Assembly (NCBI GenBank): GCA_964374005.1
Contig: CAYJXB010000002.1
Location: forward strand, 1 to 53,590
Direction: 5' to 3'
Source: an uncultured Planctomycetia bacterium
Lineage (GTDB): Bacteria > Omnitrophota > Gorgyraeia > 2-02-FULL-51-18
DNA: 53,590 nt
Part shown: in pieces, positions 1 to 38,329 of the stretch
Numbering within the stretch: the stretch's first letter is position 1
Layout: every line of letters begins with the position of its first letter
The notes under the pieces: model-generated
The model's database searches: none
The model's input: the letters and a program-made list of their open reading frames with translations, nothing else
Told to the model about the DNA's origin: nothing
Translations under genes and position numbers: made by a program

Positions 1-17
1 AGGCATTCCTTGACAAC

Positions 18-419
18 ATGTTTTCCAAGATGTCACAAGAATCTGAAACGAAGGCCGTCCTTATCACTGGCGGTTATCACGCGCCGAATCTCAAGAGTCT
101 CTTGAAGTCCAAGAAAATTTCCTACGTCTCGATCCGCCCGCAGGTATTTCATGAAACCAACCAGAAGCGATACGAAAAACTGCTTTTGAACCAACAAATT
201 GATCCGACACTCGTGAACCGCTATATCGCCAATGTTGGCAAATTGCAGTCACATAGCACAGCCAACATGCTTAGACCTTGGATGGGTAAAGATATGCCAT
301 TTTTGGCGGCAATCGCCGGGGAGTTTGGCGCGCCGTTGAGTGTGTTGGGAGTCCGGAGTTCGGAGTTCGGATTGCCAAAAATCTCCCCACTCCCAACTCC
401 AAGCTCCGAACTCACACCG
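18..419 (+). other. Module 0: C-terminal end of an unidentified domain cut by the window edge; weak resemblance to the GxxH...LLxxxGYxV C-terminus of TraB/GumN/Tiki-type putative proteases
   Basis: KAVLITGGYHAPNLKSLLKSKKISYVSIRP resembles the second GxxH motif region of that superfamily. This rests on motif memory only. Confidence 0.2.
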
Positions 420-3400
420 GGAGCGCGGCTGGCGGGGAAAGAGGACATCTGGATATCAGGGGATCAGCGATTAGGAGATCGGGGTATTGGGGTATCAGGG
501 ACATCAACTCAACAACTCACCGACTCAACAGCTCAACAATCTTTGGGTGCGCGGCTGGCAAATGACTTAAAAGCCATCAACCTATCGGGCAGACCTTTCT
601 GGTTATCGGCCGAAGAGGGATCAAAATTAGTTACAACACTTTTGGCCGAACTGCCTGCAAATCAGCGCGAGGCCGATATCCTGAGGCCTGTGCAGCAATA
701 CGCAAAAGGAGGATTTAATCCTTCCGACGTACCTCCGACCACCTTGCGGTTATCCGGCCATCTGATAGAATTTAGAAATCGTTCCGCTGGTACTTGGGAA
801 AAACTTCACGTCGATCCGGCGGATATTTTTCTTATCGATGTGGACGGCGAAATAGTGATTTTTCCTGGATTAAAGAATAAACTGTCAACCGAACTTTCGC
901 CCGAAGTTCTTCAAGGTCAGGTTGCTTATGCCGAAGTCAATCCTTTGGATAGGGATAAAGCGGCCCTGCTCCAACAGCTTGATCAGGCCGAAAGTTTTTC
1001 GAGAAAACCGGTCATCGGCGGAAATCTGAAGCTGGAATTTGAATCCCCGATTCAGCACGAACAGCTGATTCACGAAATCGCAGGGAGCCTGGAGGCGCTT
1101 AAAAACCAACGGCCAAACCTTGATCTGGGCAGTATAGACGTCTTCATCGCGCCGCAAGATGCGCATTTGGAAGCGTTGGCCAGAGCGATACAGCTTCTTG
1201 AGTTGAGGGGAGAGATCCGCAGAGGGCTTATCAAGCTTGGCGCTCAAAACGTCTCGCACGGAGAAAAAGGCGCGCATACGAGCGGCCTGCCTACGGCCCA
1301 AACGCTTAAGAATTTAGGAGTTGAATACGTCATCGTGGGTCATTCGGAGGCCCGCGAAGAGCTTCGTGAGACGGATCAAGAGATCAACCAAAAAATTAAA
1401 AATTTGATCGCTATCGGCGGATTGAAACCGGTGCTGGCGGTTGGAGAAAGCGCCGGACAAAGGCAAGCCGGTCAGACGGAGGGATTCGTCCGCATGCAAG
1501 TGTTAAGAGGTCTGGACGGATTAACGGCCGATCAAATTTTGACATCAGGTTTGGTGATTGCCTATGAGCCCATCTGGGCAATTGGTCCAAAAGCTATTGG
1601 AGCCGCCTCTCCAGAAGAGGCCAATCGTATCCAAAAGATTATCCGCCAGGCCCTTTTGGAGCAATTCGGATTAGAGGTGGCTTCCAAGACGCGAATTCAA
1701 TACGGCGGCAGTGTGAAACCTGAAAATGTGGCCTCTTTTGAACAAGAATTAAATATAGACGGCGGTTTGATTGGCGGCGCGGCCAAAAAAGGCGACACCT
1801 TTGTCCCGATCCTGTCCGCTTTTGCGGCCTCCGGCGCGCGGCTGGCGACGGCCATTTCCGCTGAGAAACGTGAAAAAATAGCCTCCATTAATCGGTTTTT
1901 GAATCAACCGCGCTTTAACAGAATCAAAGCAAATCGTCTCTGGACCGCCGATGATTTATACGAAGTCATGGTCGAAGAAGGCGTTTTTGAAGCGCCTAAA
2001 CTGCAGAATATTCTTGCGGACAAACTTTATAACGCGGCAGCGGAAGCTCAGCGCACCCGCAGTTTTGTCGCGACGGGCGGCGTAATGGACGGACCCAATG
2101 CGGCTGCCATGGCAGAAGCGGGCGCGAAAATCCTCTATTTCAGCGGCTGGCAGATGTCCCATCACTACGGTGAACCGGATCTGGCCAAATACCCTCTCGA
2201 TACCGTGCCGAAAAGAATCGCAGAAATTTATAAATTTTTACAAAATAAAGACACCAACCAAAAAGTGGTTTTCCGCCAGAGGATCAAAGCGATCGAGAAA
2301 ATATTCGATGAGCTCTTCCGAGAGATCAGAGCAAAGTCTCCGGCTGAATTAAATCAGGCCAAAGCGGCATGGGTGGCAAGATTCGTGTCCGCGGCCACTG
2401 AGAACGGAAAATCCAAATGGATTTACGTCAATGCTACGCGTGAAAATCCAAATCTTTATATTGGCGCTATTTTTGAAAAAATAGTCGAAGAGGCCATTGC
2501 GCAAAAAAGCTCCACTTCTCAGCAAAAAAGGGACGCGTTGCGCGAAGCTTCTTATTTTGCGCTCAAGGCCCAGCTTGTGGATTACCTCATCCCCATATTC
2601 GCGGATGGCGACACAGGACATCAGTCCGTCAAAGAAATGGTCAGGCTCTTTGTCGCCGCCAATTCCGCGAGCATCCATATGGAAGACCAGGTGCAGGGCG
2701 AGAAAAAATGCGGCCACATGTCCGGTAAAGTGCTTGTATCCATTTCCGAACACATGAAGCGTTTGGTTGAGGCCAGAAAAGAAGCGGACAAACTCGGTTC
2801 CAATCTCGTCATCATCGCCCGCACGGACGCGGAGGCGGCCAAGCTACTTCAAAGCAATGACGATATTCGTGACCATTATTTCATTCTTGGAACGTCCACC
2901 AAAAATCTTCCTAAATTAAAATACATCATTCAGCTGGCGAGACGCGATTTCAGCGACAGTCAGATCCGTTTGGACGAACTGGCTGGGCAGCACCCGGATC
3001 TGGTGGCCGCCATCCGCAAGGTTTGGACGCTTCGCGGCGTGATCACGGGCCGGCGCGTGGAACCGAACCAGCTTTTCTCCAATGAAGCGGGTTATACTTT
3101 GGACGCGGAAGAAATTTGGAATAGCCGCGAATCTATTGAATTTGGCGAAGACCGTTTAACCATGGACACGGTGCTCGATACCACTTATGACGATAGCACG
3201 GTCGCGTCTTTGTCCGTTCAAGAAATTTTAAATCTAAAACCCGCCGATATCGAAGACGAAATAGCCGCCATGCGCGCGCTTTCCGATCTTTGGAATTCCA
3301 AGGCCCAATTAAAGACATTTGCTCAAACCGTCGCGGACGCTATTCAGGACGAAGCTAAACGTAAGCAATGGCTGGCACTCACGAACCCTCTCAATGAAAG

Positions 3401-15400: not shown

Positions 15401-18400
15401 GGGGGTTCTTACCGATAAAGTGGTGAACATAACCTATTTTCCCATAAAGCAGGGCAAAGTATTAAGCGAATCCACGAATATAGAGACGGATTTTAACAGC
15501 ATTGTTCGCGTCAACGCTCCGCCGGCATACGGGAAAAACACCGGCGCGCGGCTGGCGGTGACCAAGTCTTCTAAGGACCAGAGTAATATTTTGATGATTC
15601 CGGCCAAAAAAATTCTGACCGATTTGAGCGCGGATCAATTGTATGAATTAGCCGTCCAGGGCGAGAAGTTACGAGCGGCACAATTCGAAGATGAAATTAG
15701 AACCGACCCGACCGTTGCTGCGATGGCGAATACAAAGGGGAAACCTCTTGCGGATCTTAAGATCGCGCAGTTTAGAGCCGCTTTGCAGGATAATTTTAAA
15801 ACGGCCTATGGCAGCACGATTTACTATAGCAATATCACAAACCGCAGCGCTAAAAAGACATCCCATTATGAAATTGACGGGTTCACGGTAGGCACGGATC
15901 AAATCGCGGCCGATCCGAAGTTCGCACAGAAACTGCTTGCGGCCGTGGAAGATCATTTAAGGAGTCGTGATTTGATCCAAGTGGACCGGAGCGTGGGGCA
16001 GGACCCGTCCGATTCAAGGCATTTCCGGCTTATAGTGGACAGCAAGTATGGCCGTTTGGCGCATGAGCTAACGGCTCTGCATTTTCCCGCCGCGCCCGGT
16101 GCTTCTTCGGCGACGCCGGATATTTTAACGATTGATCTGCCCGATTTTGATTTATCCCAATACGGTTTAGCCGATCAAAAAGAGCCTTACATTTTAAGAA
16201 TTCCCAGCCGCGGGATAAATCTGGTGCTCGGGACGGATTATTTTGGTGAAATTAAAAAATCTGCTCTAACGTCCAACGGTTATCTGGCTAAAGAGGCAGG
16301 CAATCTGGCGCTTCACGCCGGAAGCAAGATCGTGCAAGTCTTGGATGCAAAAACGGGGAAAATCGTCACCAAGCGGGTCATCGCCTCCGGTCTTTCCGGA
16401 ACGGGCAAGACAACGACGCTTGTCGGTACGCAGGGTTTAAGCGGCGACGAATCTTCGACCATGTTTCAGGATGATTTTATCGAATTGCGTATTGAGCGCA
16501 GCGCCGCCGGGAAAATTACCGGGGTGAAAGTCAAAGGATTGGAAGCGGGCGTTTACTATAAGACCGAACGCCTTGATCCGAACAAAGAACCAGAATTATT
16601 TAAGGCCGCCAAACACCCGAGCACGATTTTGTCGAATGTATGGATGAACCAGGCCAAGGACGGTTTGGTGCCAGATTATGACAATACCGATATTACGGGC
16701 AATGGCCGCGGTGTGGTGAGCCGCGCACAAATCACGGATCATCCTTCCGTGGATATGGACGGTTTGGATATCGTCGTTTGGTTGACGCGCCGCGAGACGA
16801 TCGTGCCGGCTATGGCCAAATTAAACCCCGACCTGGCGGCGGCTTTGTTTTTGCTCGGCGAATCCGTTATCACTTCAGCGGCTGACCCGACACGGGCCGG
16901 GGAATCCGTGCGTGAGGCCGGATTTAGCCCGTTTATTGTCGGGTCCGTTTCGGCTGAAGCCAATTTATTGTTGGAAATTTTTGAAGCGCTTCCTCAGATC
17001 GAAGTGGTGTTGGCAAATACCGGCAAAGTCGGGGCGACTTACGGCGAAGGCGCCAAGCCGGGCGCGAAAATTGATGTGCCGGATTCCGCCGCGCTTTTTA
17101 AAGCGCTCTTTCGCGGGAATATTGCGACACGCCCTGATCCGGATTGGGGATATGAAGTCGCTTACGAAGTGCCGGATTATGATATTTCCAGACTTGACCC
17201 GGGCGTTCACTACACTCCGGATGGAATAGCGGCTCTGACCGCAAAACTCCGCGCAGAACGCGTTCAGTGGCTTCAAAGATTTCCCGGGCTAAACCCAAAA
17301 ATCATAGATGCTATTCAAAACCCCAACGCCGGCGCGCGGCTTGGAGAACGGCTAGAAGCTAGAGGCCGTCAGCTAGTGGCAAAAGAAATCCCTTCAGCCA
17401 TTAGCCAACAGCCATTAGCCAATAGCCAACTAGGTGCGCGGCTGGCGGATGTTAATGCCTTAAAACAGGAGATCAAAAGGGCGGCGTCCAATTTATTAGC
17501 CATGGTTAGTGACAAATCTTTTGAAGAGCGTGTTTCTCATTCCAGCATTTCTTCGGGCGATATCGCCAAATTCTTGGACATAACTAAGCAGTTGGAAACG
17601 GTTCTAAAGCAGTTCCTGGATGAGCGGGATCCGCGTTTCTATGAAAATTATGATGCTCTTGTAGACGATGTCGATCAAGTATTCCGGGATAAGACGAATA
17701 TCATTTTTGACTATGCTTTTCAGGAAGGTGCGGAAGATTTTATGGTTGCGATAGGACCTTTCTACCAAGCTTTCATCGAACTGGTTAATTCTTTGAACGC
17801 GTTGAAACTTTCAAGAGGCGCGCGGTTGGCGAGTGAGCAAGGGCAGGTGGATTTGCTTAACGAGGTCAAAGACTATCTTAATTCTCCCGAAGGTATTACT
17901 CGACGGGAGAAAGGAGATACGCGAATCATTTATCTCAAATCAGTGCTTAAGGGTACCGTCAATAAACCCCAAGGCCAGTGGCTTACGGACGAACAAATAA
18001 GGGGTATAAAGACCCATTTGCGGGATTTAAAGCAGATAGCTTATACCGATCCGCTGGTTCTTAAAAAATGGGCGAAAGGAAAAATCAATGCAAATATTCC
18101 GGCAGAGAACATCGCCGAGGCGTTGTTCGAACGAATCGCGCGCGTTCTCGAATATCAAAAGACCGGACATGATGCGACGGTGTGGATGCGCACGGCGGCA
18201 CCCGCCACGACGGAAACAATCCTCGCTATACGGGATGCAGCTAAACAAAAGGAAGCGGCTCTCCGGTTCATTCAAATGATCTTGCCCGTTGCGCCGGAAA
18301 AAGTCGATGCCTATCAAGCAAGAGCCATCACTGAACTGGCGGTTCAATTAAGACTCACGGACACAGTCGTCATTGATTCTCTCCGTATGATTATCGAAGC

Positions 18401-20930
18401 TGACAAGAAACGCGAACGTCCATTTTCAAATCCCCAGATTTTAAGAAATGCTCAGAAAGCCTTATCGCCTAGCCAAGAGGGCGCGCGGCTGGCGTTGGTT
18501 TTGACCCGCAAAGAAGGCCAATCTATTCTGATCGGTGACAACATCAGGGTAAAAGTGGAACGAATTAACCGGACCGGCCGTGATAAATTTATTGTACTTT
18601 TGGGCACCGTGGCTCCTAAAAATGTGGCGGTAAACAGGCAGGAGATCTATGATGCCAAGATCAGGGATAACACTCCGCTTGTGAAACCTGAAGACCGACA
18701 CCGTACGGAAGGTACGCATCCGGTTTATGCGCGCAAAGAGGGTGAATCCATCGTGATCGGCGGCCCCGAAAATAAAATTACGATTAAAGCGACAAATATA
18801 GTATACGATCGGCTAAGTCTTGTGATTGAAGCACCCAAGTCCGTCCGTATTTTGCGCGCGGAACTCCGCGGCGCGCGGTTGGCGGCTAACGATCGCGTTC
18901 GCCAGATACAGGAAAGATTGGTCGAGATTGAGACAAAACTTAGAGAATTAAGCAAACAGGAAAGATATTTAGAAAAGCAGCCTGTGCTTAAACCGAACAC
19001 GATCGGCGTCGAAATTGGCAAACTCAATAAAGAAAAGAGGGTATTAACAGAAGAACTCGGACGATTGCAATCTTCAACGGATGGCGCGCGGCTAGCGTTG
19101 GTGTTAGGGACAAAAGAAGGTGACACCATTGAAATTTTTGATAAAAATAAGGACAATCCGCTTTACACACTTAGAATTCAGAAATACTTGCCTGGTAAGG
19201 GAAGCGAAAGATCCCATGTCCTTCTTGAGGTCGAAGATCGAAAGTCCAAGCAATTCTCTTCGCTGGTTCTTTTTCTAAGAGGATATGAACCTGGAAGCGA
19301 GCAGTATGTCACAACGTTGGACAGCCAAAAACAAATAAGCCTTTTCTTCTCCGGATTAGCCGAAGGCAGGACTAACCAACCTATCAAACTCGCTTTCACG
19401 GCCCCGAGAGACATCTTAATTTACAGAAGCAAGCTAATCTCCGGTGCGCGGCTGGCGAATGAAGAGATCCCTACCGCAGAAAGGTTAGCTGCCGCAAAAG
19501 AGTTATACGAACGTATTCTCGAACTGATTACTTCTCCTCTACTGCAACCGCGGAAAGAACAATTGACCGACGGGATCAAAGAATTAGAAGAGACGATCCG
19601 CGCCTTAGGCGTTGCGCGCAACAAATTGACTCCACAAGATAAGGGAGTGGGCTTTGATGCCGACATTTTAAAGCAAATAGAAAGTTTAGAAGAACTATTA
19701 CAGGAAGTAAGATTAAAAGAATCCGGCCCCCGGCCCTACGGGCCGATAGGCCCGGAGGGCGCTCGACTCGTAGCAGCGCCGAAGGAAACGCGTTTCCCGC
19801 AAGAGCTATTGGACAGTGTGAAAAGGCCTCTAGTTTTTCGCGATAATTCCTTAAACGCGTTATTGAACCGCGAGCGTGATAATGCAGTCAGTAATGTCTC
19901 TGAATTTGGTCCAGAAGTCGTTGAGTCCCCTGAGCTAAAGGCCTTTGCCCTGGAGCTTTTTGTTGCAAGGACGCGGGACATTCGTTCGAGCAAGCTTTTC
20001 GCGCTCGCCTCATTCGTTTTTGAACCGGTTGTCGTCAAAGAAGGAGAGAAAGAAGTCTATTACTTGAAAGTCAGGAACCAAGAAGGACAGGGCAATAAGA
20101 TTAAGATACTGTCGTCCACTCAGCTTGCAAAAGAGGTAAGGTCGGAACTCACGAAGCTCCGCGCAACAGAAGTTCATGCTGAGAATGTTCAACAGGGCCT
20201 GGTCCAGGCGATCACCATCGCGGATCACGAGATTCGCCAGGCCGTTTTTTCAAATCTTTCGGATGTTTCAAGCCCTGTGACCTATGAACTGCCATTAAGC
20301 ATTTTCTCCGGATTTCAGTCAAAAGACGCTTCTCAGTTTGAAGTTCACGCCGAATACCTTGTTCTGCGAGCCCTGGCTTTCCTGAAACAAAGGGAAAATC
20401 GCCAAAGCCATTTGTATCTAAGCGGTTTAGAGGTCCTCACGCAAGCTCAGCAAACATTTTTCCGTGAAGCGGTTCAAAAATATCGGGCCGAGAATCTGAT
20501 CTTGTTCGGGACGGCGAAAGGCGATGTGATCGTGCAATTCGTGGACGCAGATACCCATCGTGAGGAGCTAAATCTGGATGTTTTCCGGAAAGTTTATATT
20601 CCCATTAACCGTATCCAAACAGAGGAATTGGCCGACTGGGCGGGCCGTTTCTACATCAGCGGCGGGCTCGCACATTTCTTTTCTTCGGGTGGTCAGCTGG
20701 ATTTCAAGGGCTACGATAAGACAAAGATCAGTCGGGTGCTGGATGTTTACAATTCCAGATCCTACGAGGCGATCTCAGACAGCGAGAAATTTGTCCAAGT
20801 CCTATCCGGACAAGAAAAGAAAGTAGCCGTCCTGAGGCGGTTTGTGCTGGGTAAAATTTACAAGATTCCGTTTGATAATATATTCCTGGCTTTCAGCACC
20901 ATGAAACGCATGCTAAGTCAAGCCGCTTAA
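18..20930 (+). CDS. Giant multi-enzyme fusion ORF (at least 6970 aa; central-carbon polyprotein-like), probably 5-prime incomplete in this window
   Basis: No in-frame stop for 6970 codons. The frame is also open from nt 3 to the ATG at 18, so the gene may start upstream. The translation contains, in order, TPI, isocitrate lyase, enoyl-CoA hydratase-like, malate synthase, PMM/PGM-like, cupin PGI, FBP aldolase/phosphatase x2, histidine phosphatase, ATP-PEPCK and CsrA-like modules. Twenty-one G-A-R-L-A-type pentapeptides separate the modules. Stop TAA 20928-20930 is followed by a hairpin terminator. Confidence 0.9.
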   Translation: MFSKMSQESETKAVLITGGYHAPNLKSLLKSKKISYVSIRPQVFHETNQKRYEKLLLNQQIDPTLVNRYIANVGKLQSHSTANMLRPWMGKDMPFLAAIAGEFGAPLSVLGVRSSEFGLPKISPLPTPSSELTPGARLAGKEDIWISGDQRLGDRGIGVSGTSTQQLTDSTAQQSLGARLANDLKAINLSGRPFWLSAEEGSKLVTTLLAELPANQREADILRPVQQYAKGGFNPSDVPPTTLRLSGHLIEFRNRSAGTWEKLHVDPADIFLIDVDGEIVIFPGLKNKLSTELSPEVLQGQVAYAEVNPLDRDKAALLQQLDQAESFSRKPVIGGNLKLEFESPIQHEQLIHEIAGSLEALKNQRPNLDLGSIDVFIAPQDAHLEALARAIQLLELRGEIRRGLIKLGAQNVSHGEKGAHTSGLPTAQTLKNLGVEYVIVGHSEAREELRETDQEINQKIKNLIAIGGLKPVLAVGESAGQRQAGQTEGFVRMQVLRGLDGLTADQILTSGLVIAYEPIWAIGPKAIGAASPEEANRIQKIIRQALLEQFGLEVASKTRIQYGGSVKPENVASFEQELNIDGGLIGGAAKKGDTFVPILSAFAASGARLATAISAEKREKIASINRFLNQPRFNRIKANRLWTADDLYEVMVEEGVFEAPKLQNILADKLYNAAAEAQRTRSFVATGGVMDGPNAAAMAEAGAKILYFSGWQMSHHYGEPDLAKYPLDTVPKRIAEIYKFLQNKDTNQKVVFRQRIKAIEKIFDELFREIRAKSPAELNQAKAAWVARFVSAATENGKSKWIYVNATRENPNLYIGAIFEKIVEEAIAQKSSTSQQKRDALREASYFALKAQLVDYLIPIFADGDTGHQSVKEMVRLFVAANSASIHMEDQVQGEKKCGHMSGKVLVSISEHMKRLVEARKEADKLGSNLVIIARTDAEAAKLLQSNDDIRDHYFILGTSTKNLPKLKYIIQLARRDFSDSQIRLDELAGQHPDLVAAIRKVWTLRGVITGRRVEPNQLFSNEAGYTLDAEEIWNSRESIEFGEDRLTMDTVLDTTYDDSTVASLSVQEILNLKPADIEDEIAAMRALSDLWNSKAQLKTFAQTVADAIQDEAKRKQWLALTNPLNESTETQKVPRSIEELREAAKAEFGVEVDWDWEPARTFEGYYQIDKKLGVVNSSVRMREFLKIADIGWMEQDGPNKKHSAELSANVKAVPQGKDAFLSLNLSPSFDWSNPEKWKDSLTEEQIANIKAAKALKGFNWNKQDTWRKYSKDILFFLDMLENFSPEMGKLGYQIQFVTIFQDHNSTLNTYRVGMDLVSRGAAGYVRNVQQEEQRLDSRFERHQTAAGVPRVDGEDRLSNRGASDLSAGGKDSTEHGFAALGIQLGEEAGLGAFTGEEVLFSAENGVAFITLNRPTSGNALTLEMVRQLRTYLAQVKTDPNIKAVVLKGVGTNFSTGDDIKSVVRAIHEGKIGFVDRFYEEQYALLQEIMDLSRAKAVISFVNGWVISSALGLVSSGNFIVADETTKFAALDTGLGLPLGNANPYHMRLRVRTPAARYYGLTGDSFNVAESNALGFENIFYSPATNLAELESDIKKLVSELSRRGFDADDILRELGVILKQRTGEVDRTSPKLEGINKYFGSDKATLLEIVQSLEAQRNTDPFAEQTLKILQLRSPIALQVTLSLIDEVTSFKDALDHQLKAVKYLATQNPDYAEGVQAILGFDVSAGTKTEKREPRFTGEMGKVDVAELTKAFGISVGARLAEISFREDDKVGNVEGAYKDIYTPETLSVLKKLAPLTAEQNDLMKKRYNRREDRAANKKDITFLNPNSYIPGTKIYVRDARKGNFEGASIPQDLQRQWIQGTGPAARPRETLERSLRNIAYALLSGADGWMFDGEDALGQVDTMSLDNIRNLTLAIHKDPIFMKVAENLAQELVRDGFQPAGFDWKKQLDFTTKLYRTRGLHLNDRHTIVTIDGKEYAMSATIVDMVLYIVNNYERLLDEGSTPTFYLPKLQTAEEAAFMAKIMDALEDSLIYKDKPLERGTIKAFVLVEQLEESFQLMEIRAALGKHFVGFNTGRWDYINSVSDAKAWDEKFINPNIEEITMTYGYMGNYEDRVRRASYTPDRNGNTVHWIGGMEPNIPVGSKEGVEAAMKKAVAGGQREFNAGAGGKWVASPKMVPIVRPIWEKGFAGQTNADGTPKVNNLEMKVKPLTYAAKDATGLTKLPEAPRTIRGARNLLSVGLQYGNAFERGFAAAALKPADFFGNDSILYLMEDAATGEIRLSILHEWVHKKAVITEDDSELGVKAGDVFTDELFKKLLEQEYQKLLSADNKDVHDDSKTTTLPIARQIVETYVLDPVKFAWYIDLLNIVLNVSNLDEATRRINLYTDTWKTTGKRITHNLDFALAGARLAAEKVAAREKFVISEKRLTLKAVLRQITMREPLTVEVERGTTVILSKAVTALGPNETALLLNRDDVVMVNGEHPTVSLEGRQQELIGKYSSTLSKPLSQTDAKLVRQMLRDYDYRSRGVGAPSPAVWFRWGIVWGQMALDRAAKSGVKKRTVVLANDGRIVDPEIIEALAAGLAYAGLDVIYTSAKHMDTATSYSWSVKQFNPLASIFITSSHVVAEMGEKIQGGKISISDIEGRLSSLSTREIKDESYKSYGKITPGTSSASTVSGEIVEADIRENVIRNNVLIGHAFSKPGALAQLDEAYRRAPDDILTVIKKWEDAIPAGSLPLDGMAIVVDGRHTESGSLGVESLRRLGANAIGLNTDVYALGGEHGADPSARENLSDLMKRMHDERVLIGLSFDLDGDRGAIVVRFEITQAEFDKLTDDEKEKCLLTDGRISRFLILPPDNLEAALIRPLLEQGGYRDLAEKTGGKKLAFVRDVLSSDMVDVIAKQNGAESFLTDSGYVFLKEKARELEKQGYLVVMLGERSGHTWTRVTGDYENPIAVAIQFAVMARQYQTAHPESVNPFMDFFKANTVPFKQSLRFQPEISMSLLRKLSGVDDWRFELNPDGKTLETKPTQVVIAGARNRVIRSLISYFRPGKTFGDLTIDELVYQKPSTSPDKMYRFVEVRFKTADGLPAGKFVMRASSNDPTFVASYETPARKGETLESPSVHDRYISIGGIVMQYLRRKGFTDVLDSKDGNTQIEAASLKAYLNFLDAFGARAVELTPLLGLPAVFDPSTLAVTYGDGVGFLKAWQKTIGGNVMSGDALWKSLKLAVGYVDEEGNVGRQPDLSQFYSPEKILYHGHQGAYWNDKKLRTLLQENKLRPDVTVLPAGFIGEEYIRTEGHHHLSGLPEVYETVYGRNGYLLFKTVSEDSEDIADVMFIFAEEGDHVLFPPGYQHISINIGATPFVMTDWVSTEARPDFEYIKRHHGAPYWVVKGPDGQPRFVRNPRYKGKVPEIRLLRPAEEIPEFGLKKGVPMFNLVREGKIGLLRFLNDTNESGRYDAIYQKAFVPTQTRSESGARLSTEKESLAQPALTLAGARLASFDDKLERALQNSNRERVDELVQNDLLKGKQFRRSIGTNDARFTTGQIELLDLAIEAASGARLAHQAVIATPANPAASLNQDQQKRLSQLAGHEVSRAFIESRVFTFSLSDFDLYAETPKNKEDQQKDAIANFVKGAWSAGRESRELEGVTPDEQKTAENDLRDSLSLLQKAAQHLPTGSLNHVRFAFVLESATPNSEEVKFLTEVLGYPPQTHSYYGEASPELYKDDTGSVVATAGTFPYTKDGQEVKEPQTIYLSVAYLKRLAQLIHQDQPSAQEVINRVSHEVATLNWNLSAEGGLEARGNEAIESKVKALYQKSKDDQRAKWIDRDHNRTTELFVSVDLSKVLGPVTQIPESLVKKAETLLDQLKKQGVIKDHFITRIGNYLLLDISHNDGAKSQRISSLLDAVLFGALDETVNQRGLAPVPSEATQLRALLNWKEGEVRYSKRPSQPTLRQVIVGGAEKSSDGILFDLYASPNITTQQAIEGTHGTYFVAQNTEARQKGLGFTLPGGNNNRGLFHLLAVLKTAMHTVKAIFVGKTSRFPVDEPVAQAISLGDLQVIFYHSQAGAEAVGGISGPGTAPRIIEGTHGRRLSLKPVTLKEAVNLTPEKLRGEFAGYAPTIIWGTQVFDKNPRRTGQFDEIVDVIEESAEFSVRGDLDYIRDEFAKLLNEQGFSQPALTTEKANSQAGKAFDEFKARPVKRPKQIESKEGRLTSSIFKADIGSALGHTKPLSVYMAVARAILEKAKRDGLIKDYLVKRKSVDREATDEKNGVIEFRVGDDIELQIIHDRPIQDKEIHGLAWRAFWAAGWTVIADDVLERTPYGLLQDLPNAKDLDSFEEAKIDPATFEIMKENLKALSLENPRAIDEDELKALEEKFHSEWEAQASGKRVSKKKASAAFTFTGNVKGSGIGSAEGYVDPGNWTVFAFDKASPGAFSVPFMKAAEQALKDGVYTNLLFEVEKVRPEYQNEKEVPQEPIILDYANLEERKLIERMLGAVNEFQIKAIRTVDANGRVNLVASNSTDRLYQVTSGIYAGKDDPAGIMDTKFAEYTVRWMQNNLFITEGDERGSHWAFVLPVAMDKSSPGTHSIPTVVAVSFTVTPHGKIENVIDVFENNKFDDIRAKAAYFNWAFIRSVGNIGPRGDASSVEYTYPLWLNINKITADNSPYKVTIPIREAETQPSALPTATTEAKPITDWENNILAILKVEGIHNIEEIRKAVRQATHLYSNHRNDLTNQQKKDLKEAIDKLRRQVEGARLAQEETMQRLGFKLAEGEQNRIAYNPDFTPLVLNADVWIQPHAVTSLNENSIIQGKRADEVAKAANDNISTSLTQTGIQQAIQSSNELWQTIGKKLISNESVIFLRSPQKRSKETAAQFVEVARTHGITIDNSSDENVSNKAAYQVKIDENLFELEVGALESKSRAQLEEIEELRTVSKRQKERDAFMKPPAGQNLPEGQSFIEFADQVDRFLQHINKEYAGKTVVVLGASAVWTGTARTLLRTRQARELFNKNSYVDWNDRTLAPHNNRENLIHLNEEIAPTGARLGERLEARGRQLVAKEIPSAISQQPLANSQLGARLANLSADLEHLNRGDEFVLQYRDKDKNLQSIHGVVDFVSIGIIVTGDILVVLGKGVLTDKVVNITYFPIKQGKVLSESTNIETDFNSIVRVNAPPAYGKNTGARLAVTKSSKDQSNILMIPAKKILTDLSADQLYELAVQGEKLRAAQFEDEIRTDPTVAAMANTKGKPLADLKIAQFRAALQDNFKTAYGSTIYYSNITNRSAKKTSHYEIDGFTVGTDQIAADPKFAQKLLAAVEDHLRSRDLIQVDRSVGQDPSDSRHFRLIVDSKYGRLAHELTALHFPAAPGASSATPDILTIDLPDFDLSQYGLADQKEPYILRIPSRGINLVLGTDYFGEIKKSALTSNGYLAKEAGNLALHAGSKIVQVLDAKTGKIVTKRVIASGLSGTGKTTTLVGTQGLSGDESSTMFQDDFIELRIERSAAGKITGVKVKGLEAGVYYKTERLDPNKEPELFKAAKHPSTILSNVWMNQAKDGLVPDYDNTDITGNGRGVVSRAQITDHPSVDMDGLDIVVWLTRRETIVPAMAKLNPDLAAALFLLGESVITSAADPTRAGESVREAGFSPFIVGSVSAEANLLLEIFEALPQIEVVLANTGKVGATYGEGAKPGAKIDVPDSAALFKALFRGNIATRPDPDWGYEVAYEVPDYDISRLDPGVHYTPDGIAALTAKLRAERVQWLQRFPGLNPKIIDAIQNPNAGARLGERLEARGRQLVAKEIPSAISQQPLANSQLGARLADVNALKQEIKRAASNLLAMVSDKSFEERVSHSSISSGDIAKFLDITKQLETVLKQFLDERDPRFYENYDALVDDVDQVFRDKTNIIFDYAFQEGAEDFMVAIGPFYQAFIELVNSLNALKLSRGARLASEQGQVDLLNEVKDYLNSPEGITRREKGDTRIIYLKSVLKGTVNKPQGQWLTDEQIRGIKTHLRDLKQIAYTDPLVLKKWAKGKINANIPAENIAEALFERIARVLEYQKTGHDATVWMRTAAPATTETILAIRDAAKQKEAALRFIQMILPVAPEKVDAYQARAITELAVQLRLTDTVVIDSLRMIIEADKKRERPFSNPQILRNAQKALSPSQEGARLALVLTRKEGQSILIGDNIRVKVERINRTGRDKFIVLLGTVAPKNVAVNRQEIYDAKIRDNTPLVKPEDRHRTEGTHPVYARKEGESIVIGGPENKITIKATNIVYDRLSLVIEAPKSVRILRAELRGARLAANDRVRQIQERLVEIETKLRELSKQERYLEKQPVLKPNTIGVEIGKLNKEKRVLTEELGRLQSSTDGARLALVLGTKEGDTIEIFDKNKDNPLYTLRIQKYLPGKGSERSHVLLEVEDRKSKQFSSLVLFLRGYEPGSEQYVTTLDSQKQISLFFSGLAEGRTNQPIKLAFTAPRDILIYRSKLISGARLANEEIPTAERLAAAKELYERILELITSPLLQPRKEQLTDGIKELEETIRALGVARNKLTPQDKGVGFDADILKQIESLEELLQEVRLKESGPRPYGPIGPEGARLVAAPKETRFPQELLDSVKRPLVFRDNSLNALLNRERDNAVSNVSEFGPEVVESPELKAFALELFVARTRDIRSSKLFALASFVFEPVVVKEGEKEVYYLKVRNQEGQGNKIKILSSTQLAKEVRSELTKLRATEVHAENVQQGLVQAITIADHEIRQAVFSNLSDVSSPVTYELPLSIFSGFQSKDASQFEVHAEYLVLRALAFLKQRENRQSHLYLSGLEVLTQAQQTFFREAVQKYRAENLILFGTAKGDVIVQFVDADTHREELNLDVFRKVYIPINRIQTEELADWAGRFYISGGLAHFFSSGGQLDFKGYDKTKISRVLDVYNSRSYEAISDSEKFVQVLSGQEKKVAVLRRFVLGKIYKIPFDNIFLAFSTMKRMLSQAA
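1008..1832 (+). other. Triosephosphate isomerase module (preceded by an unassigned extension of about 150 aa, 561..1007)
   Basis: GGNLKLE (cf. NWK), GAQN, VGHSEAR (cf. GHSERR), AYEPIWAIG, YGGSV, GGLIGGAA. The catalytic N/K/H/E positions are retained. Confidence 0.8.
1848..4151 (+). other. Isocitrate lyase module (long form, about 770 aa)
   Basis: YFSGWQ, FADGDTGH, HMEDQ, KKCGHMSGK (ICL signature K-[KR]-C-G-H), IIARTDA, and the C-terminal HQ..AG...STEHGF. It begins directly after a GARLA junction. Confidence 0.85.
4206..5291 (+). other. Enoyl-CoA hydratase / 3-hydroxyisobutyryl-CoA hydrolase-like (crotonase fold) module
   Basis: EEVLFSAENGVAFITLNRPTSGNAL, AVVLKGVGTNFSTGDDI, and a long ECH_2-like C-terminal extension. 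Confidence 0.7.
5307..7238 (+). other. Malate synthase (A-type) module
   Basis: WMFDGEDALGQ, RGLHLNDRH, YLPKLQTAEEA, IKAFVLVEQLE, GFNTGRWDYINS, GGMEPNIP, GKWVASPKM, MEDAATGEIRLS. Confidence 0.85.
7579..9527 (+). other. Phosphomannomutase/phosphoglucomutase-like module (preceded by an unassigned extension of about 108 aa, 7254..7578)
   Basis: YDYRSRG (cf. YDIRG), VVLANDGR, ITSSH phosphoserine loop (cf. TASHNP), SFDLDGDRGAIV metal loop, GERSGH. Confidence 0.65.
9543..10436 (+). other. Cupin-type (archaeal-type) glucose-6-phosphate isomerase module
   Basis: TEGHHHLSGLPEVYETVYGRNG and PPGYQHISINIG match the cPGI motifs T-x-G-H-x-H...E-x-Y and PP-x3-H-x3-N. Confidence 0.7.
11508..12530 (+). other. 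Degenerate FBP aldolase/phosphatase-like module (probable pseudo-enzyme copy)
   Basis: It is collinear with the next module (LFVSVDLSKVLG vs IFKADIGSALGH; ITRIGNYLLLDISH vs RVGDDIELQIIH). The K and D of the KADIGS motif are replaced. Confidence 0.45.
12645..14030 (+). other. Fructose-1,6-bisphosphate aldolase/phosphatase (class V FBPase) module with insertions
   Basis: IFKADIGSALGH, VGDDIELQIIH, TGNVKGSGIG, YAGKDDPAGI, GDERGSHWAFVLPV. Confidence 0.75.
14286..15128 (+). other. Histidine-phosphatase (phosphoglycerate-mutase superfamily) module with atypical catalytic motifs
   Basis: WIQPHAVTSLN (cf. RHGET), LTQTGIQQA, SPQKRSKETA (cf. SPLxRAxxTA). The Arg of RHG and the distal His (VLGASAVW vs SHG) are not conserved. 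Confidence 0.5.
15129..15245 (+). repeat. 117-bp perfect direct repeat, copy 1 (GARLG - 29-aa spacer - GARLA)
   Basis: Base-for-base identical to 17331..17447, read directly from the sequence. Confidence 0.95.
15558..17330 (+). other. ATP-dependent phosphoenolpyruvate carboxykinase module
   Basis: LGTDYFGEIKK, LHAGSK, SGLSGTGKTTT (kinase-1a loop), FQDDF, GVYYKT, ITGNGRGVV. Confidence 0.8.
17331..17447 (+). repeat. 117-bp perfect direct repeat, copy 2
   Basis: Identical to 15129..15245. The two copies bracket the 99-aa unknown module plus the PEPCK module. The offset of 2202 nt is a multiple of 3. Confidence 0.95.
18495..18869 (+). other. Tandem CsrA-like (carbon storage regulator) RNA-binding module
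   Basis: LVLTRKEGQSILIGDNIRVKV...APKNVAVNRQEIY (cf. CsrA MLILTRKVGESI...APKEVSVHREEIY), then a second copy ARKEGESIVIG...LVIEAPKSVRILRAEL. The first copy begins exactly at the GARLA junction. Confidence 0.75.
19098..19442 (+). other. Second, more diverged CsrA-like module (apparently also two half-copies)
   Basis: LVLGTKEGDTIEIF directly after GARLA; C-terminal IKLAFTAPRDILIYRSKL (cf. IGIEAPKEVSVHREEI). Confidence 0.5.
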
Positions 20931-33482: not shown

Positions 33483-33962
33483 ATGATTTACTCGAAAACG
33501 TGCGAATATGCGATAAGGGCGCTTAGCTGTTTTGCCGGTCATAGTGAAAAAAAATGGGTGTCGGTCGAGGAGGTAAGTAGGGAAGCGGGAGTTCCTTGCC
33601 CGTATGTGGCGAAGATCTTTCAGTGCCTTGTCCAAGAAAAAATATTGAATTCGCACCGCGGGCCCGGCGGCGGGTACTCGCTTATGATAGACCCTTCCAA
33701 AATCACGCTTATAAAGGTGATTCAGGCTCTGGATGATCTGGAAAAATCCCCTTTTTCAAACTGTATTATGGGACTGCATCAGTGCGGCGATGGGAATCCT
33801 TGTCCTTTGCACCACACATGGATGAAAGCCAAGGATAAGATGCTAAAAAAGTTATCCAGCTGTTCTATTTCAGATGTGGCAGGGTTGGTGGATAAATTTG
33901 AAAGTAGTAAATGCGACCGAATCACGCTTTCCGAAAGCATGAGGGCAATATTCACGACCTAG
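33483..33962 (+). CDS. Rrf2-family (IscR/NsrR-like) transcriptional regulator
   Basis: MIYSKTCEYAIRAL, GPGGGYSL, Cys cluster C-x6-C-x5-C. Start taken at the ATG at 33483. Confidence 0.8.
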   Translation: MIYSKTCEYAIRALSCFAGHSEKKWVSVEEVSREAGVPCPYVAKIFQCLVQEKILNSHRGPGGGYSLMIDPSKITLIKVIQALDDLEKSPFSNCIMGLHQCGDGNPCPLHHTWMKAKDKMLKKLSSCSISDVAGLVDKFESSKCDRITLSESMRAIFTT

Positions 33963-36480: not shown

Positions 36481-36516
36481 ATCGTGAACGAGGATACCTC
36501 AAGGAGGAATATTTAG

Positions 36517-37621: not shown

Positions 37622-38329
37622 ATGAACTGGTCCGTTTTTCCGGAAGACGTGTCGGTGTTTGGTCATAAAGTTGACGATCTTTTTTATCTGGCGTTTTGGT
37701 TGACGGCGGTCACTTTTGTTTTGGTGGTGGGGATTTTGGGTTATTTTATCTGGCGCTATCGCTCGAAAAACGCCCCTAAGCCGTATTATACGCATGGAAA
37801 AAGCTTTGGTGCGACGATGCTGACCGTGGGTCTAGCGATCGTGGTTTTTATCGTGATTGATATCAATTTGGCTGTCCATGACCATTTTGCCTGGGAAGAT
37901 TTCTTGGGAAAGCCGGCTTCGCCGGATGCCTTGCGTGTCGAGATTATGCCGGAACAATTCGTGTGGAATATTCGCTACGCGGGTGCCGACGGGAAATTTG
38001 GCACGGCCGATGATGTTGCCAATATAAATGAGTTGCATGTGCCGGTTGGCCGTGACGTCGTCGTGGCGCTCAAGTCCAAGGACGTAATTCATAGTTTTTC
38101 CCTGCCGAATTTTCGAGTTAAGCAAGACGCCGTTCCGGGAATGGTGACCTATCTAAAATTCAAAGCGGCAAAAAAAGGCTCATTTGATATTGCCTGCGCC
38201 GAACATTGCGGGTTGGCTCATTATCGTATGAGAGGAATGTTGACCGTCGAGTCGCCGGAAGTGTTCCAGTCGTGGCTTTCCGGCCAGCCGCTTCAAGGCC
38301 CAGACAACAATTGGGGATGGGTATGGTAG
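37622..38329 (+). CDS. coxB: Cytochrome c oxidase subunit II
   Basis: Two N-terminal TM segments; CuA site HSFSLP...CAEHCGLAHYRM. Confidence 0.85.
   Translation: MNWSVFPEDVSVFGHKVDDLFYLAFWLTAVTFVLVVGILGYFIWRYRSKNAPKPYYTHGKSFGATMLTVGLAIVVFIVIDINLAVHDHFAWEDFLGKPASPDALRVEIMPEQFVWNIRYAGADGKFGTADDVANINELHVPVGRDVVVALKSKDVIHSFSLPNFRVKQDAVPGMVTYLKFKAAKKGSFDIACAEHCGLAHYRMRGMLTVESPEVFQSWLSGQPLQGPDNNWGWVW

What the first reader, a model, noticed from the sequence alone, without database searches (positions are those of the whole stretch)
18..20930. One 20.9-kb ORF chains a near-complete gluconeogenesis/glyoxylate enzyme set into a single polypeptide
The sequence shows a stop-free frame of 6970 codons. 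The translation reads as a series of full-length enzymes with their catalytic signatures mostly intact: TPI (GNLK, GHSEAR, AYEPIWAIG), isocitrate lyase (KKCGHMSGK), a crotonase-fold protein, malate synthase A (GRWDY, MEDAATGEIR), PMM/PGM-like, cupin PGI (GHHH..EVY, PPGYQH), FBP aldolase/phosphatase (KADIGS), a PGAM-superfamily phosphatase and ATP-PEPCK (GLSGTGKTT). These enzymes together run C2/C4 to PEP to triose-P to FBP to F6P to G6P to G1P. Known giant bacterial ORFs are adhesins, RTX proteins or NRPS/PKS, and none of those motifs is present here. I do not know of a described fusion of unrelated soluble central-metabolism enzymes on this scale. The missing steps (enolase, PGK, GAPDH) could lie in the unseen 5-prime part, because the frame is open at the window edge.
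Basis: partly seen in the sequence, partly recalled or inferred. Interest (0 to 1): 0.95.

Follow-up and report, generated by a model that had tools for sequence, protein, structure and literature searches.

The report
Cysteine-free enzyme polyprotein with cut-site motifs
The 20.9-kb gene is real and does string intact sugar-building enzymes together, but it belongs to a large, apparently undescribed Omnitrophota family of export-signalled, almost cysteine-free carrier proteins whose swappable enzyme cassettes are separated by a conserved five-residue motif that looks like a protease cut site.

Summary

- Multi-enzyme giant proteins of Omnitrophota are already described in two preprints.
- The unseen 5' part is not more enzymes. 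It is about 496 aa of a conserved head domain with a Sec-type leader.
- The chain is probably not one working polypeptide.

- **Junction motif.** G-A-R-[L/M]-[A/S] occurs 20 times at module junctions (0.26 expected; 0 in the window's other 20 genes).
- **Cysteine purge.** There are 2 Cys in 6975 aa against 0.97% in neighbouring genes. One of the two is the catalytic Cys of isocitrate lyase.
- **Tail.** A conserved 300-aa tail ends in -QAA.
- **Codon bias.** The motif prefers GGC-GCG-CGG beyond what the peptide requires.

All four features recur across a large head-bearing family (6709 representative clusters). It is essentially restricted to Omnitrophota, with 5-6 copies in several genomes. 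Cargo differs almost completely between members.

A syntenic ortholog (flanking genes 82-94% identical) shares only the head and one PEPCK cassette. The homology of that cassette starts and stops exactly at the motif.

Best reading: an exported, protease-processed cassette polyprotein, analogous to MARTX toxins but not a member of that family. Cleavage, the protease and the destination are inferred, not shown.

The parts
3..419 (+). C-terminal ~139 aa of the conserved ~530-aa head domain (...KAVLITGGYHAPNL...). About 496 aa, including the Sec-type leader, lie upstream of the window.
   Evidence: 73% identical to P0004 residues 497-612 and 58% to P0001. The head family has 6709 representative clusters.
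420..434 (+). First of 20 junction motifs, G-A-R-L-[A/G/S/V], 15 nt each. Starts at nt 420, 546, 1833, 5292, 7239, 10437, 10494, 10686, 14271, 15129, 15231, 15543, 17331, 17433, 17817, 18480, 18870, 19083, 19443 and 19758. A degenerate GARAV copy sits at 9528.
   Evidence: 20 observed against 0.26 expected, max 3 in 1000 shuffles. 0 in the 20 other genes. Codons GGC 15/20, GCG 18/20, CGG 18/20 against backgrounds of 0.39, 0.29 and 0.13.
561..1832 (+). Cassette: unknown 149-aa segment plus triosephosphate isomerase (Pfam match at aa 336-606).
   Evidence: PF00121, E 1.8e-57, full-length profile match. NxK, GHSEAR and AYEPIWAIG are visible in the translation.
1848..5291 (+). Cassette: long-form isocitrate lyase (about aa 616-1385, catalytic KKCGH) joined without a motif to an ECH_2 crotonase / 3-hydroxyisobutyryl-CoA-hydrolase-like domain (aa 1400-1763).
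   Evidence: Cys903 is one of only two Cys in the ORF.
5307..7238 (+). Cassette: malate synthase A.
   Evidence: PF01274 and PF20659. 3cux E 2.8e-40 with GRWDY and MEDAAT aligned. A 52%-identical cassette in P0151 starts at a motif in both proteins.
7254..9527 (+). Cassette: phosphoglucomutase/phosphomannomutase-like, with insertions. Holds the second Cys (C2845).
   Evidence: PGM_PMM I, II and III.
9543..10436 (+). Cupin-type glucose-6-phosphate isomerase.
   Evidence: PF06560, E 4.4e-23.
10701..14270 (+). One motif-bounded unit: unknown N-terminal part, a degenerate FBPase_3 copy (aa ~3831-4200), then an intact FBP aldolase/phosphatase (aa ~4201-4756, KADIGS).
   Evidence: The same double unit is motif-bounded in the ortholog P0004, aa 2156-3160.
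14286..15128 (+). Histidine-phosphatase-superfamily module, divergent. Activity is doubtful.
   Evidence: PF00300, E 7.8e-10. No PDB sequence match.
15127..15248 (+). 122-nt direct repeat, copy 1. It encodes the linker GARLGERLEARGRQLVAKEIPSAISQQPLANSQLGARLA. Copy 2 is at 17329-17450, 99% identical. Together they flank [unknown 99-aa module + PEPCK].
15543..17339 (+). PEPCK cassette including its 5' motif (ATP-dependent PEP carboxykinase, aa 5186-5776).
   Evidence: PF01293, E 6e-52. 1j3b E 1.8e-20. 90.7% nt and 93% aa identical to L002/P0004, where it sits at a different position. Homology starts at GGCGCGCGGCTGGCG and ends in the next GGCGCGCGG.
18495..18869 (+). CsrA-like module 1. Module 2 is at 19098-19442.
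   Evidence: PF02599, E 5e-25, two stretches. The residue after GARLA aligns with residue 2 of RsmE 2jpp.
19773..20930 (+). Tail unit. It starts at the last junction motif. Its last ~300 aa are the conserved family tail, ending ...MKRMLSQAA-stop.
   Evidence: A tail profile hits the C-termini of 78 long family members. 88 of 104 long members end in [AS]A. Model pLDDT is 75 with no significant fold match.

Best explanation
The ORF is the 3' 93% of a gene of about 7,470 aa. It belongs to a large multigene family, essentially restricted to Omnitrophota, of head-cargo-tail carrier proteins.

**Architecture**
- A Sec-type leader and a conserved 530-aa head come first.
- A variable string of self-contained cargo cassettes follows. 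Here these are enzymes of the glyoxylate shunt and of gluconeogenesis up to glucose-1-phosphate, CsrA regulators and several unknown modules.
- A conserved 300-aa tail ending in -[A/S]A closes the protein.
- Cassettes are separated by the pentapeptide G-A-R-[L/M]-[A/S] in otherwise unconserved linkers.

**Inferred mechanism**
- The protein is exported in an unfolded state. This would explain why almost every cysteine has been purged except the catalytic one.
- An endopeptidase cuts it at the junction motif, most simply L|A or A|x. This releases the cassettes as separate proteins, as in a viral polyprotein or a MARTX toxin.
- New cassette combinations arise by recombination at the motif, whose DNA is unusually uniform (GGCGCGCGG...).

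**Shown:** the architecture, the motif statistics, the cysteine purge, the family distribution, and the cassette breakpoints at the motif.

**Inferred:** cleavage, export, the identity of the protease, and where the cargo acts.
For: **Motif**
- It occurs 20 times in the window ORF against 0.26 expected, and 0 times in the other 20 genes.
- Family-wide, GARM, GARL, ARMA and ARLA are the most over-represented 4-mers in cargo. There are 514 GARL in 151 proteins and no flank conservation.
- GSRL and GTRL variants occur, and the orthologous PEPCK boundary in P0040 keeps the site.
- Median spacing is 308 aa.
- The one motif inside a structure model lies in a region with pLDDT below 50.
- The Ala of GARLA sits where Met1 of free CsrA would be.

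**Export**
- 107 of 115 complete N-termini have a K/R n-region, a hydrophobic core and a S[FY]A|A c-region.
- Cys is 0.03% here against 0.97% in the neighbouring genes, P about 1e-26.
- Cys is 0-0.5% in 150 relatives and 0.119% over 167,628 aa in 68 independent loci.
- The surviving Cys903 is the ICL catalytic residue.

**Carrier architecture**
- The head is found in 6709 representative clusters, at the N-terminus of proteins up to 6899 aa.
- The tail is found in at least 78 long members, and the C-terminal -[AS]A is conserved.
- Cargo is almost entirely different between members.

**Cassette exchange**
- The syntenic ortholog L002 has flanking genes 82-94% identical. It shares only the head and the PEPCK cassette at the DNA level. 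The breakpoints lie inside the motif.
- 122-nt linker repeats flank the PEPCK region.
- Shared blocks start within 5 aa of a motif in 35% of cases against 2.3% at random.
Against: - No protease domain was found in the ORF, the head or the tail by Pfam, NCBIfam, PHROGs, PADLOC or PDB sequence and fold searches.
- No proteomic evidence for cleavage is available.
- The cargo needs ATP, acetyl-CoA, NAD and mRNA. An ordinary periplasmic or extracellular location would make it useless.
- The genes sit among housekeeping genes, with no conserved secretion or protease neighbour.
- 14 of 112 long family members lack the strict motif.
- The ICL-crotonase and PGM-PGI junctions lack a good motif.
- The codon-level bias of the motif is not needed for a protease site and remains unexplained.
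- The leader was judged by simple rules, not by a trained predictor.
Confidence: 0.55

Rival explanations
1. It is a housekeeping polyprotein for the cell's own metabolism. The cassettes are released, or act, in the producer's cytoplasm. They supply the upper gluconeogenesis, glyoxylate and sugar-nucleotide steps that appear to be 'missing' as stand-alone genes in Omnitrophota. The head only tethers or regulates.
For: - The cargo forms a coherent pathway with catalytic residues kept, including the only functionally required Cys.
- Other members carry UDP-glucose dehydrogenase, UDPGP, epimerases, 6PGL-type, AceK and adenylate kinase.
- The 2026 preprint finds GAPDH, PGK and enolase in 176 of 176 genomes. 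It finds GPI in only 67 of 176 and ICL and aceB in 0 of 176 by KO calling. These are exactly the kinds of steps carried here.
- The loci lie among housekeeping genes.
Against: - A Sec-like leader with K/R on its N-terminal side predicts the cargo outside the cytoplasm.
- A cytoplasmic role gives no reason for a 30-fold cysteine purge.
- Near-complete cargo replacement between genomes with 82-94% identical flanking proteins is not how housekeeping pathways evolve.
Confidence: 0.25
2. It is an uncleaved membrane- or surface-anchored mega-enzyme (metabolon). The motif is only a hinge or docking element, and the chain works as one polypeptide.
For: - It is a single ORF with consecutive pathway steps.
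- No protease was identified.
- West-Roberts et al. consider both cleaved and uncleaved states open.
Against: - A hinge does not need an invariant G-A-R-[LM]-A with unconserved flanks.
- Module order does not follow the pathway and is reshuffled between orthologs.
- The parent enzymes are obligate oligomers of different symmetry: TIM dimer, ICL tetramer, FBP aldolase/phosphatase octamer, and a strand-swapped CsrA dimer whose N-terminus is at the motif (for the last point; the oligomeric states are from established knowledge).
Confidence: 0.12
3. The motif acts mainly at the nucleic-acid level. It could be a recombination or cassette-junction site, or an mRNA or translation signal such as a rare-codon pause at domain boundaries. 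On this view the peptide is a by-product.
For: - Codon choice is far from background. CGG is used 18/20 against 0.13, P 3e-14.
- The same bias appears in the ortholog, in an unrelated metagenome locus with 7 exact 15-mers, and over 68 loci: GGC 0.63 vs 0.34, GCG 0.62 vs 0.34, CGG 0.50 vs 0.18.
- Cassette homology breaks inside GGCGCGCGG.
- The degenerate GARAV site keeps the 9-nt core.
Against: - The peptide is conserved where the codons are not, for example AGA, AGG, TTG and ATG in L001, L003 and L005.
- L/M and A/S/T substitutions are conservative at protein level.
- No Rfam family matches the window.
- The motif is always in frame and on the coding strand.
- The two levels are not exclusive.
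Confidence: 0.08

Closest known systems
Omnitrophota giant multi-enzyme proteins: 'Archaeovorins' (West-Roberts et al. 2023, bioRxiv 10.1101/2023.11.21.568195) and 'multi-enzyme metabolic clusters' (Nielsen & Lui 2026, bioRxiv 10.64898/2026.06.07.730766)
   Same: - Same phylum.
- Very long ORFs tiled with TPI, GPI, FBPase, PGM/PMM, aldolase and regulatory domains.
- Predicted to be extracytoplasmic.
- Cleavage is suspected.
   Different: - Those studies treat proteins of at least 10-30 kaa with many TM helices, C39/S8 peptidase or SecA domains.
- They state that cleavage points are unknown.
- The second paper does not contain the words cleavage, motif, linker or polyprotein.
- The present family is 1.5-7.5 kaa and has one leader and no other TM segment.
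- It has a defined head and tail, a junction motif, a cysteine purge and demonstrable cassette exchange.
- It also carries ICL and malate synthase, which the 2026 study found in 0 of 176 genomes.
MARTX toxins (multifunctional autoprocessing RTX toxins of Vibrio and relatives)
   Same: - Conserved N- and C-terminal regions flank a variable, recombination-shuffled set of modular effector domains.
- The effectors are released by cleavage after Leu in inter-domain linkers.
- They are very long secreted proteins (PMC5218395).
   Different: - No RTX or glycine-rich repeats (0 GGxGxD).
- No cysteine protease domain; the ORF has 2 Cys in all.
- A Sec-type N-terminal leader instead of a type I signal.
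- The cargo is central-metabolism enzymes and CsrA rather than cytotoxic effectors.
- No sequence or fold similarity of head or tail.
Viral and retroelement polyproteins
   Same: One ORF encodes several complete proteins, separated by a short, repeated protease recognition sequence in unconserved linkers.
   Different: - The gene is chromosomal and bacterial, and lies among housekeeping genes.
- No recognisable protease module.
- The cargo is metabolic.
- There are multiple paralogous polyproteins per genome.
Polymorphic toxin / Rhs / CdiA-type cassette systems (PMC3482391)
   Same: A conserved delivery part with recombination-exchanged variable cassettes, and several paralogs per genome.
   Different: - Those systems exchange a single C-terminal toxin tip with a cognate immunity gene.
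- Here many internal cassettes are exchanged, no immunity genes are seen, and the cargo is enzymes and regulators.

Membership tests
MARTX toxin | N- and C-terminal glycine-rich / RTX repeat regions | tested here: not met
   0 GGxGxD in 6975 aa. No repeat Pfam hits.
MARTX toxin | Internal cysteine protease domain (CPD, Peptidase C80) | tested here: not met
   No Pfam hit. There are only 2 Cys, one in the ICL active site and one in a PGM insertion.
MARTX toxin | Variable effector modules between conserved ends, released at Leu-containing linkers | tested here: inconclusive
   The architecture and a Leu/Met-containing junction motif are present. Cleavage was not testable.
Omnitrophota giant multi-enzyme proteins (class 1 of Nielsen & Lui 2026) | Omnitrophota origin | tested here: met
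   All named relatives are Candidatus Omnitrophica/Omnitrophota MAGs. The window's own genome was not identified.
Omnitrophota giant multi-enzyme proteins (class 1 of Nielsen & Lui 2026) | Many distinct enzyme Pfams tiling one polypeptide, with none dominating | tested here: met
   At least 10 distinct enzyme or regulator families.
Omnitrophota giant multi-enzyme proteins (class 1 of Nielsen & Lui 2026) | Length of at least 10,000 aa (catalogue threshold) and multiple TM helices | tested here: not met
   About 7,470 aa by homology to P0004. No TM-like segment apart from the leader, plus one weak candidate at aa 5113-5131.
TIKI / TraB / ChaN / erythromycin-esterase superfamily (candidate identity of the head) | Sequence or fold match to the superfamily | tested here: not met
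   The idea rests only on a recalled motif pattern (DAH...E...R...GGxH; conserved residues). No Pfam or NCBIfam hit at E<=1. No PDB profile hit. No Foldseek hit.
Type I secretion (RTX adhesin/toxin) substrate | C-terminal uncleaved signal, RTX repeats, adjacent ABC/MFP genes, no N-terminal leader | tested here: not met
   A conserved C-terminus exists. But there are no RTX repeats and no adjacent transporter genes, and a Sec-type leader is present.
Functional enzymes (each module a member of its enzyme family) | Full-length profile match and catalytic motifs | tested here: met
   Met for TIM, ICL, malate synthase, PGM, cupin PGI, FBP aldolase/phosphatase, PEPCK and CsrA. Doubtful for His_Phos_1. 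Not met for the upstream FBPase_3 copy.

The most novel reading that the evidence does not exclude
These are effector polyproteins of host-dependent nanobacteria. The chain is exported through Sec and beyond, delivered into the cytoplasm of a prey or host cell, and cut at GAR[LM]A there or on the way. Intact gluconeogenic, glyoxylate and sugar-nucleotide enzymes and CsrA/AceK-type regulators then rewire the victim's carbon flux towards sugar phosphates that the parasite can harvest. This would be the cellular equivalent of phage auxiliary metabolic genes. The uniform GGCGCGCGG core would serve as the recombination joint of an in-frame cassette-exchange system that diversifies the payload.
Probability: 0.2. 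Interest if true: 0.95.

Novelty: new variant of a known kind. Interest (0 to 1): 0.8.

Why it matters
Two groups have asked whether Omnitrophota giant proteins are cut into pieces. One of them stated that no cleavage points were known. This family offers a concrete, testable candidate: a five-residue junction motif with hundreds of instances.

- The motif lets one split these proteins computationally into their units for structure prediction and annotation.
- It gives mass spectrometrists exact neo-termini to look for.
- The near-total cysteine purge combined with a Sec leader on ATP-, CoA- and RNA-dependent cargo poses a sharp localisation paradox. Its resolution would tell how these uncultured nanobacteria interact with hosts.
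- The motif-bounded cassette exchange between close genomes would be a new way of building bacterial genes in frame.
- Pathway surveys that call glyoxylate or upper-glycolysis steps 'absent' in this phylum may be missing enzymes hidden inside such carriers.

Tried and rejected
**Searches that failed or found nothing**
- Whole-ORF and 5000-aa homology searches failed on a length limit and a time-out.
- The C-terminal 1200 aa found nothing by word-seeded search.
- An exact look-up of the neighbouring YceI gene found no contig.
- P0002's contig had no retrievable DNA.
- None of the 79 species-representative loci is the window's genome. The true 5' end of this particular gene was therefore not recovered.

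**Head as a TIKI/ChaN-like metalloprotease**
- There is no support from Pfam, NCBIfam, a PDB profile search or Foldseek.
- Weak hits to alpha-pore-forming toxins, Tc toxins and SMC/Rad50 (E 0.02-1) reflect the long helical insert. I do not rely on them.

**Other negatives**
- The tail has only generic Rossmann-like hits at E>=0.05.
- PHROGs and PADLOC scans of head, tail and unknown modules were negative.
- Rfam and tRNA scans of the window were negative.

**Readings considered and rejected**
- 2A-like ribosome skipping or an arrest peptide: there is no conserved upstream peptide.
- Internal translation starts: there is no consistent start codon or SD after the motif.
- Autoproteolysis by N-O/N-S shift: the motif has no Ser, Thr or Cys.
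- Signal peptidase I site: Arg at -3.
- Assembly chimera: rejected because of the syntenic independent assembly and the uniform motif, Cys and codon properties along the ORF.
Full report
**1. The observation**

The + strand, frame 3, is free of stop codons from nt 3 to the stop at 20928-20930. That is 6975 codons. The next-longest open stretch in the window is 2400 nt.

- triosephosphate isomerase
- isocitrate lyase
- an ECH_2 crotonase
- malate synthase
- phosphoglucomutase/phosphomannomutase domains I-III
- cupin-type glucose-6-phosphate isomerase
- FBPase_3, the bifunctional FBP aldolase/phosphatase
- a histidine-phosphatase-superfamily domain
- ATP-dependent PEP carboxykinase

Comparison with solved structures agrees for ICL, the crotonase (closest to 3-hydroxyisobutyryl-CoA hydrolases), malate synthase A, FBP aldolase/phosphatase, PEPCK and CsrA.

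- The histidine-phosphatase module has no PDB sequence match.
- aa 3831-4200 is a degenerate extra FBPase_3 copy.
- The PEPCK module is divergent.

The rest of the window is ordinary Gram-negative chromosome: YceI, LpxA, a Liv-type ABC transporter, DacA, Maf, cytochrome oxidase, Dus, TypA, MgtE and the CCA-adding enzyme.

**2.

*The junction motif.* The peptide G-A-R-L-[A/G/S/V] occurs 20 times in the ORF. A composition-preserving shuffle gives 0.26 on average and at most 3 in 1000 trials. G[AST]R[LM] does not occur once in the other 20 genes of the window, which total 7475 aa. The copies sit at module boundaries:
- TIM ends 5 residues before one.
- ICL, malate synthase, PGM, the FBP unit, the phosphatase module, PEPCK, both CsrA modules and the tail each begin right after one.
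- For CsrA, the residue after GARLA aligns with residue 2 of the free protein RsmE. The Ala of the motif therefore occupies the position of the initiator Met.

*The cysteine purge.* The ORF has 2 cysteines in 6975 residues (0.03%). The other genes of the window have 72 in 7455 (0.97%), giving P about 1e-26. One of the two is the catalytic Cys of the ICL KKCGH motif. Cysteine has been removed everywhere except where catalysis requires it. This also argues that the ICL module is under selection for activity.

*The motif's DNA.* Codon choice within the motif departs strongly from the ORF's own usage. Seven copies are the exact 15-mer GGCGCGCGGCTGGCG, all in frame on the coding strand.

| Codon | In the motif | ORF background | P |
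|---|---|---|---|
| GGC (Gly) | 15/20 | 0.39 | 1e-3 |
| GCG (Ala) | 18/20 | 0.29 | 2e-8 |
| CGG (Arg) | 18/20 | 0.13 | 3e-14 |
| CTG (Leu) | 12/20 | 0.16 | 1e-5 |

**3. The family**

*The head.* The first 139 residues of the window ORF match the end of an N-terminal domain found in a partial protein of a Candidatus Omnitrophica MAG (P0001). I searched that 567-aa head against 1.84 billion representative proteins.
- It matched 6709 clusters at E<=1e-3 and 1201 at E<=1e-30.
- In the best 150, the domain sits at the N-terminus of proteins of 400 to 6899 aa.

*Shared features.* These relatives share the window's peculiarities.
- They contain 514 GARL motifs, up to 22 per protein.
- Cys content is 0-0.5%.
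- The most over-represented 4-mers in their cargo are GARM, GARL, ARMA and ARLA.
- The consensus is [S/A]-G-A-R-[L/M]-[A>S>T], with no information in the flanks.
- Some members use GSRL or GTRL, and 14 of 112 long members have no strict motif.

*The tail.* A 290-position profile built from the window's C-terminus hits the C-termini of 78 long members. 88 of 104 long members end in -[A/S]A, typically ...LP(P)I...(G)AR[LM]A..M..QAA.

*The leader.* 107 of 115 complete N-termini have a Sec-type leader: K/R, a 12-residue hydrophobic core, then ...S[F/Y]A|A or ...AFA|N.

*Distribution.* A scan of species-representative genomes found 128 head-encoding stretches; the best 80 were kept, giving 79 distinct loci.
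- Nearly all are in Omnitrophota MAGs.
- Some third-party-assembly MAGs carry the label 'uncultured Planctomycetia'.
- Several genomes carry 5-6 copies.
- Over 68 of these independent loci (167,628 aa), Cys is 0.119% and there are 294 motif sites.
- The motif codons are again biased: GGC 0.63 vs 0.34, GCG 0.62 vs 0.34, CGG 0.50 vs 0.18.
- The bias is strong in an unrelated JGI metagenome locus, which has 7 exact copies of the window's 15-mer. It is weaker in two others.
- It is not absolute. Other sites use AGA, AGG, TTG or ATG, so the peptide is the more conserved level.

*Unknown folds.* Head and tail gave confident models (pLDDT 82 and 75). Neither has a significant match in the PDB, in BFVD, or in Pfam, NCBIfam, PHROGs or PADLOC.

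**4. Variable cargo and cassette exchange**

The window's modules are almost all absent from the other 150 family representatives. Pfam-recognisable cargo elsewhere has a similar theme:
- adenylate kinase, PEPCK, FBP aldolase/phosphatase and CsrA
- UDP-glucose dehydrogenase, UDPGP and NAD-epimerases
- aldose epimerase and 6PGL/glucosamine-isomerase type
- AceK, receiver and FHA domains
- HAD, HEAT, a protein kinase and a PLP enzyme

Much of the cargo is unannotatable.

The most informative relative is L002, an ENA contig that is syntenic with the window: giant gene, YceI, LpxA, Liv transporter, DacA.
- Flanking orthologs are 82-94% identical in protein and 82-89% in DNA.
- Its giant gene is 4731 aa.
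- At the DNA level it shares only the end of the head and one 1.8-kb block, the PEPCK cassette (90.7% nt, 93% aa).
- That cassette sits at aa 1468 in L002 and at aa 5181 of the window translation.
- In the nucleotide alignment, similarity begins exactly at GGCGCGCGGCTGGCG and ends inside the next GGCGCGCGG. The sequence on both sides is unrelated.
- Even the tail is only 24% identical.
- The ortholog's own 17 motifs use GGCGCGCGG in 15 cases.

Further evidence:
- In the window, two 99%-identical 122-nt repeats encode a double-motif linker and flank [an unknown 99-aa module + PEPCK]. This is the footprint expected from recombination between linkers.
- Across the family, shared cargo blocks start within 5 residues of a motif in 35% of cases against 2.3% for random positions (n = 26 boundaries).

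**5. How it most likely works**

*Shown:*
- a head-cargo-tail architecture
- a specific junction pentapeptide in unconserved, and where modelled disordered, linkers
- a family-wide cysteine purge
- a Sec-like leader
- cassette turnover with breakpoints at the motif

*Inferred:*
- The motif is an endopeptidase recognition site that releases the cassettes. The CsrA alignment favours a cut at L|A or just after the Ala.
- The chain is exported unfolded.
- The uniform DNA of the motif promotes, or records, in-frame recombination between paralogs. Alternatively, its rare GCG-CGG codons pause translation at domain boundaries.

*Open:* the protease is not identified. The head has an invariant set of polar residues (D, H, N, Q, E, E, R, GGxH), which suggests an enzyme. 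My recollection-based idea that it is TIKI/ChaN-like failed every test I could run.

*The main tension:* the cargo needs cytoplasmic cofactors and RNA, yet the signals point outside the cell. Three resolutions are possible:
- The topology inference is wrong and the polyprotein serves the cell's own metabolism. This rival draws support from the 2026 survey, in which upper-pathway and glyoxylate enzymes look 'absent' as stand-alone genes.
- The chain acts uncleaved at the envelope.
- The cargo ends up in another cell's cytoplasm. This would fit the predatory or episymbiotic lifestyle proposed for this phylum.

**6. Comparison with what is known**

Those papers deal with proteins of at least 10-30 kaa with many TM helices. 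One says cleavage points are unknown. The other never mentions cleavage, motifs or linkers. Full-text searches for Omnitrophota with polyprotein, cleavage-site or processing terms found nothing else.

*MARTX toxins.* This is the closest mechanistic analogue. MARTX toxins have conserved ends and recombination-shuffled central effectors that are released by cleavage after Leu in the linkers (PMC5218395). Membership fails on RTX repeats, on the cysteine protease domain and on secretion type.

*Classification.* I therefore file this as a new variant of a known kind. It is a member of the Omnitrophota multi-enzyme giant-protein phenomenon that reveals a defined carrier family, a candidate cleavage and recombination motif, and a cysteine purge.

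**7. Verdict**

| Question | Verdict / score |
|---|---|
| Observation | confirmed |
| Best explanation (exported, motif-processed cassette polyprotein) | about 0.55 |
| Interest | 0.8 |

The architecture, the motif statistics and the cassette exchange are solid. Cleavage, export and destination remain to be shown. Interest is high because the finding gives a directly testable answer to an open question about these proteins and raises a sharp localisation paradox.

Noticed in passing
window 37622-40590: COX2, followed by a single ORF that fuses COX1 and COX3 domains (794 aa). This is an aerobic terminal oxidase in an Omnitrophota-like genome. The 2026 complete-genome survey reports none in 176 genomes.
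   Followed up: no
window 9528-9542: The PGM/cupin-PGI junction reads GARAV. The peptide is degenerate, but the DNA keeps the 9-nt core GGCGCGCGG.
   Followed up: partly
window ~4157-4200 (aa ~1385-1400): The isocitrate lyase and the ECH_2 crotonase are joined without any junction motif. They are probably a single two-domain cassette.
   Followed up: no
window 11493-12602 (aa 3831-4200): A degenerate second FBPase_3 copy lies directly upstream of the intact one; KADIGS is replaced by VSVDLSK. The same double unit is motif-bounded in the ortholog P0004.
   Followed up: partly
window 15127-15248 and 17329-17450: A 122-nt direct repeat, 99% identical, encodes a double-motif linker and flanks a 2.1-kb segment (unknown module + PEPCK). 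It looks like a recombination footprint.
   Followed up: partly
window 15336-15392 (aa 5113-5131): The only strongly hydrophobic stretch in the ORF (VVDFVSIGIIVTGDILVVL, KD 2.3) lies inside an unannotated 99-aa cassette.
   Followed up: no
L002 16613-18702: The syntenic relative carries BufA1 and MbnB/HvfC (bufferin-type RiPP) genes between YceI and LpxA. The window lacks them.
   Followed up: no
window 33911-37596: A cluster of a radical SAM/SPASM protein, a flavin amine oxidase and a fatty-acid-desaturase-family protein on the + strand.
   Followed up: no
L004 21013-23079: A 688-aa protein with a weak Reprolysin_3 (zinc metalloprotease) hit lies directly downstream of one family member. It is not conserved at the other loci examined.
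   Followed up: no
family proteins P0003-P0151, extreme C-termini: Many tails carry a last (G)AR[LM]A about 10 residues before the C-terminal -QAA/-RSA. Cleavage after GARLA would itself create ...ARLA-COOH ends that resemble the native C-terminus.
   Followed up: no
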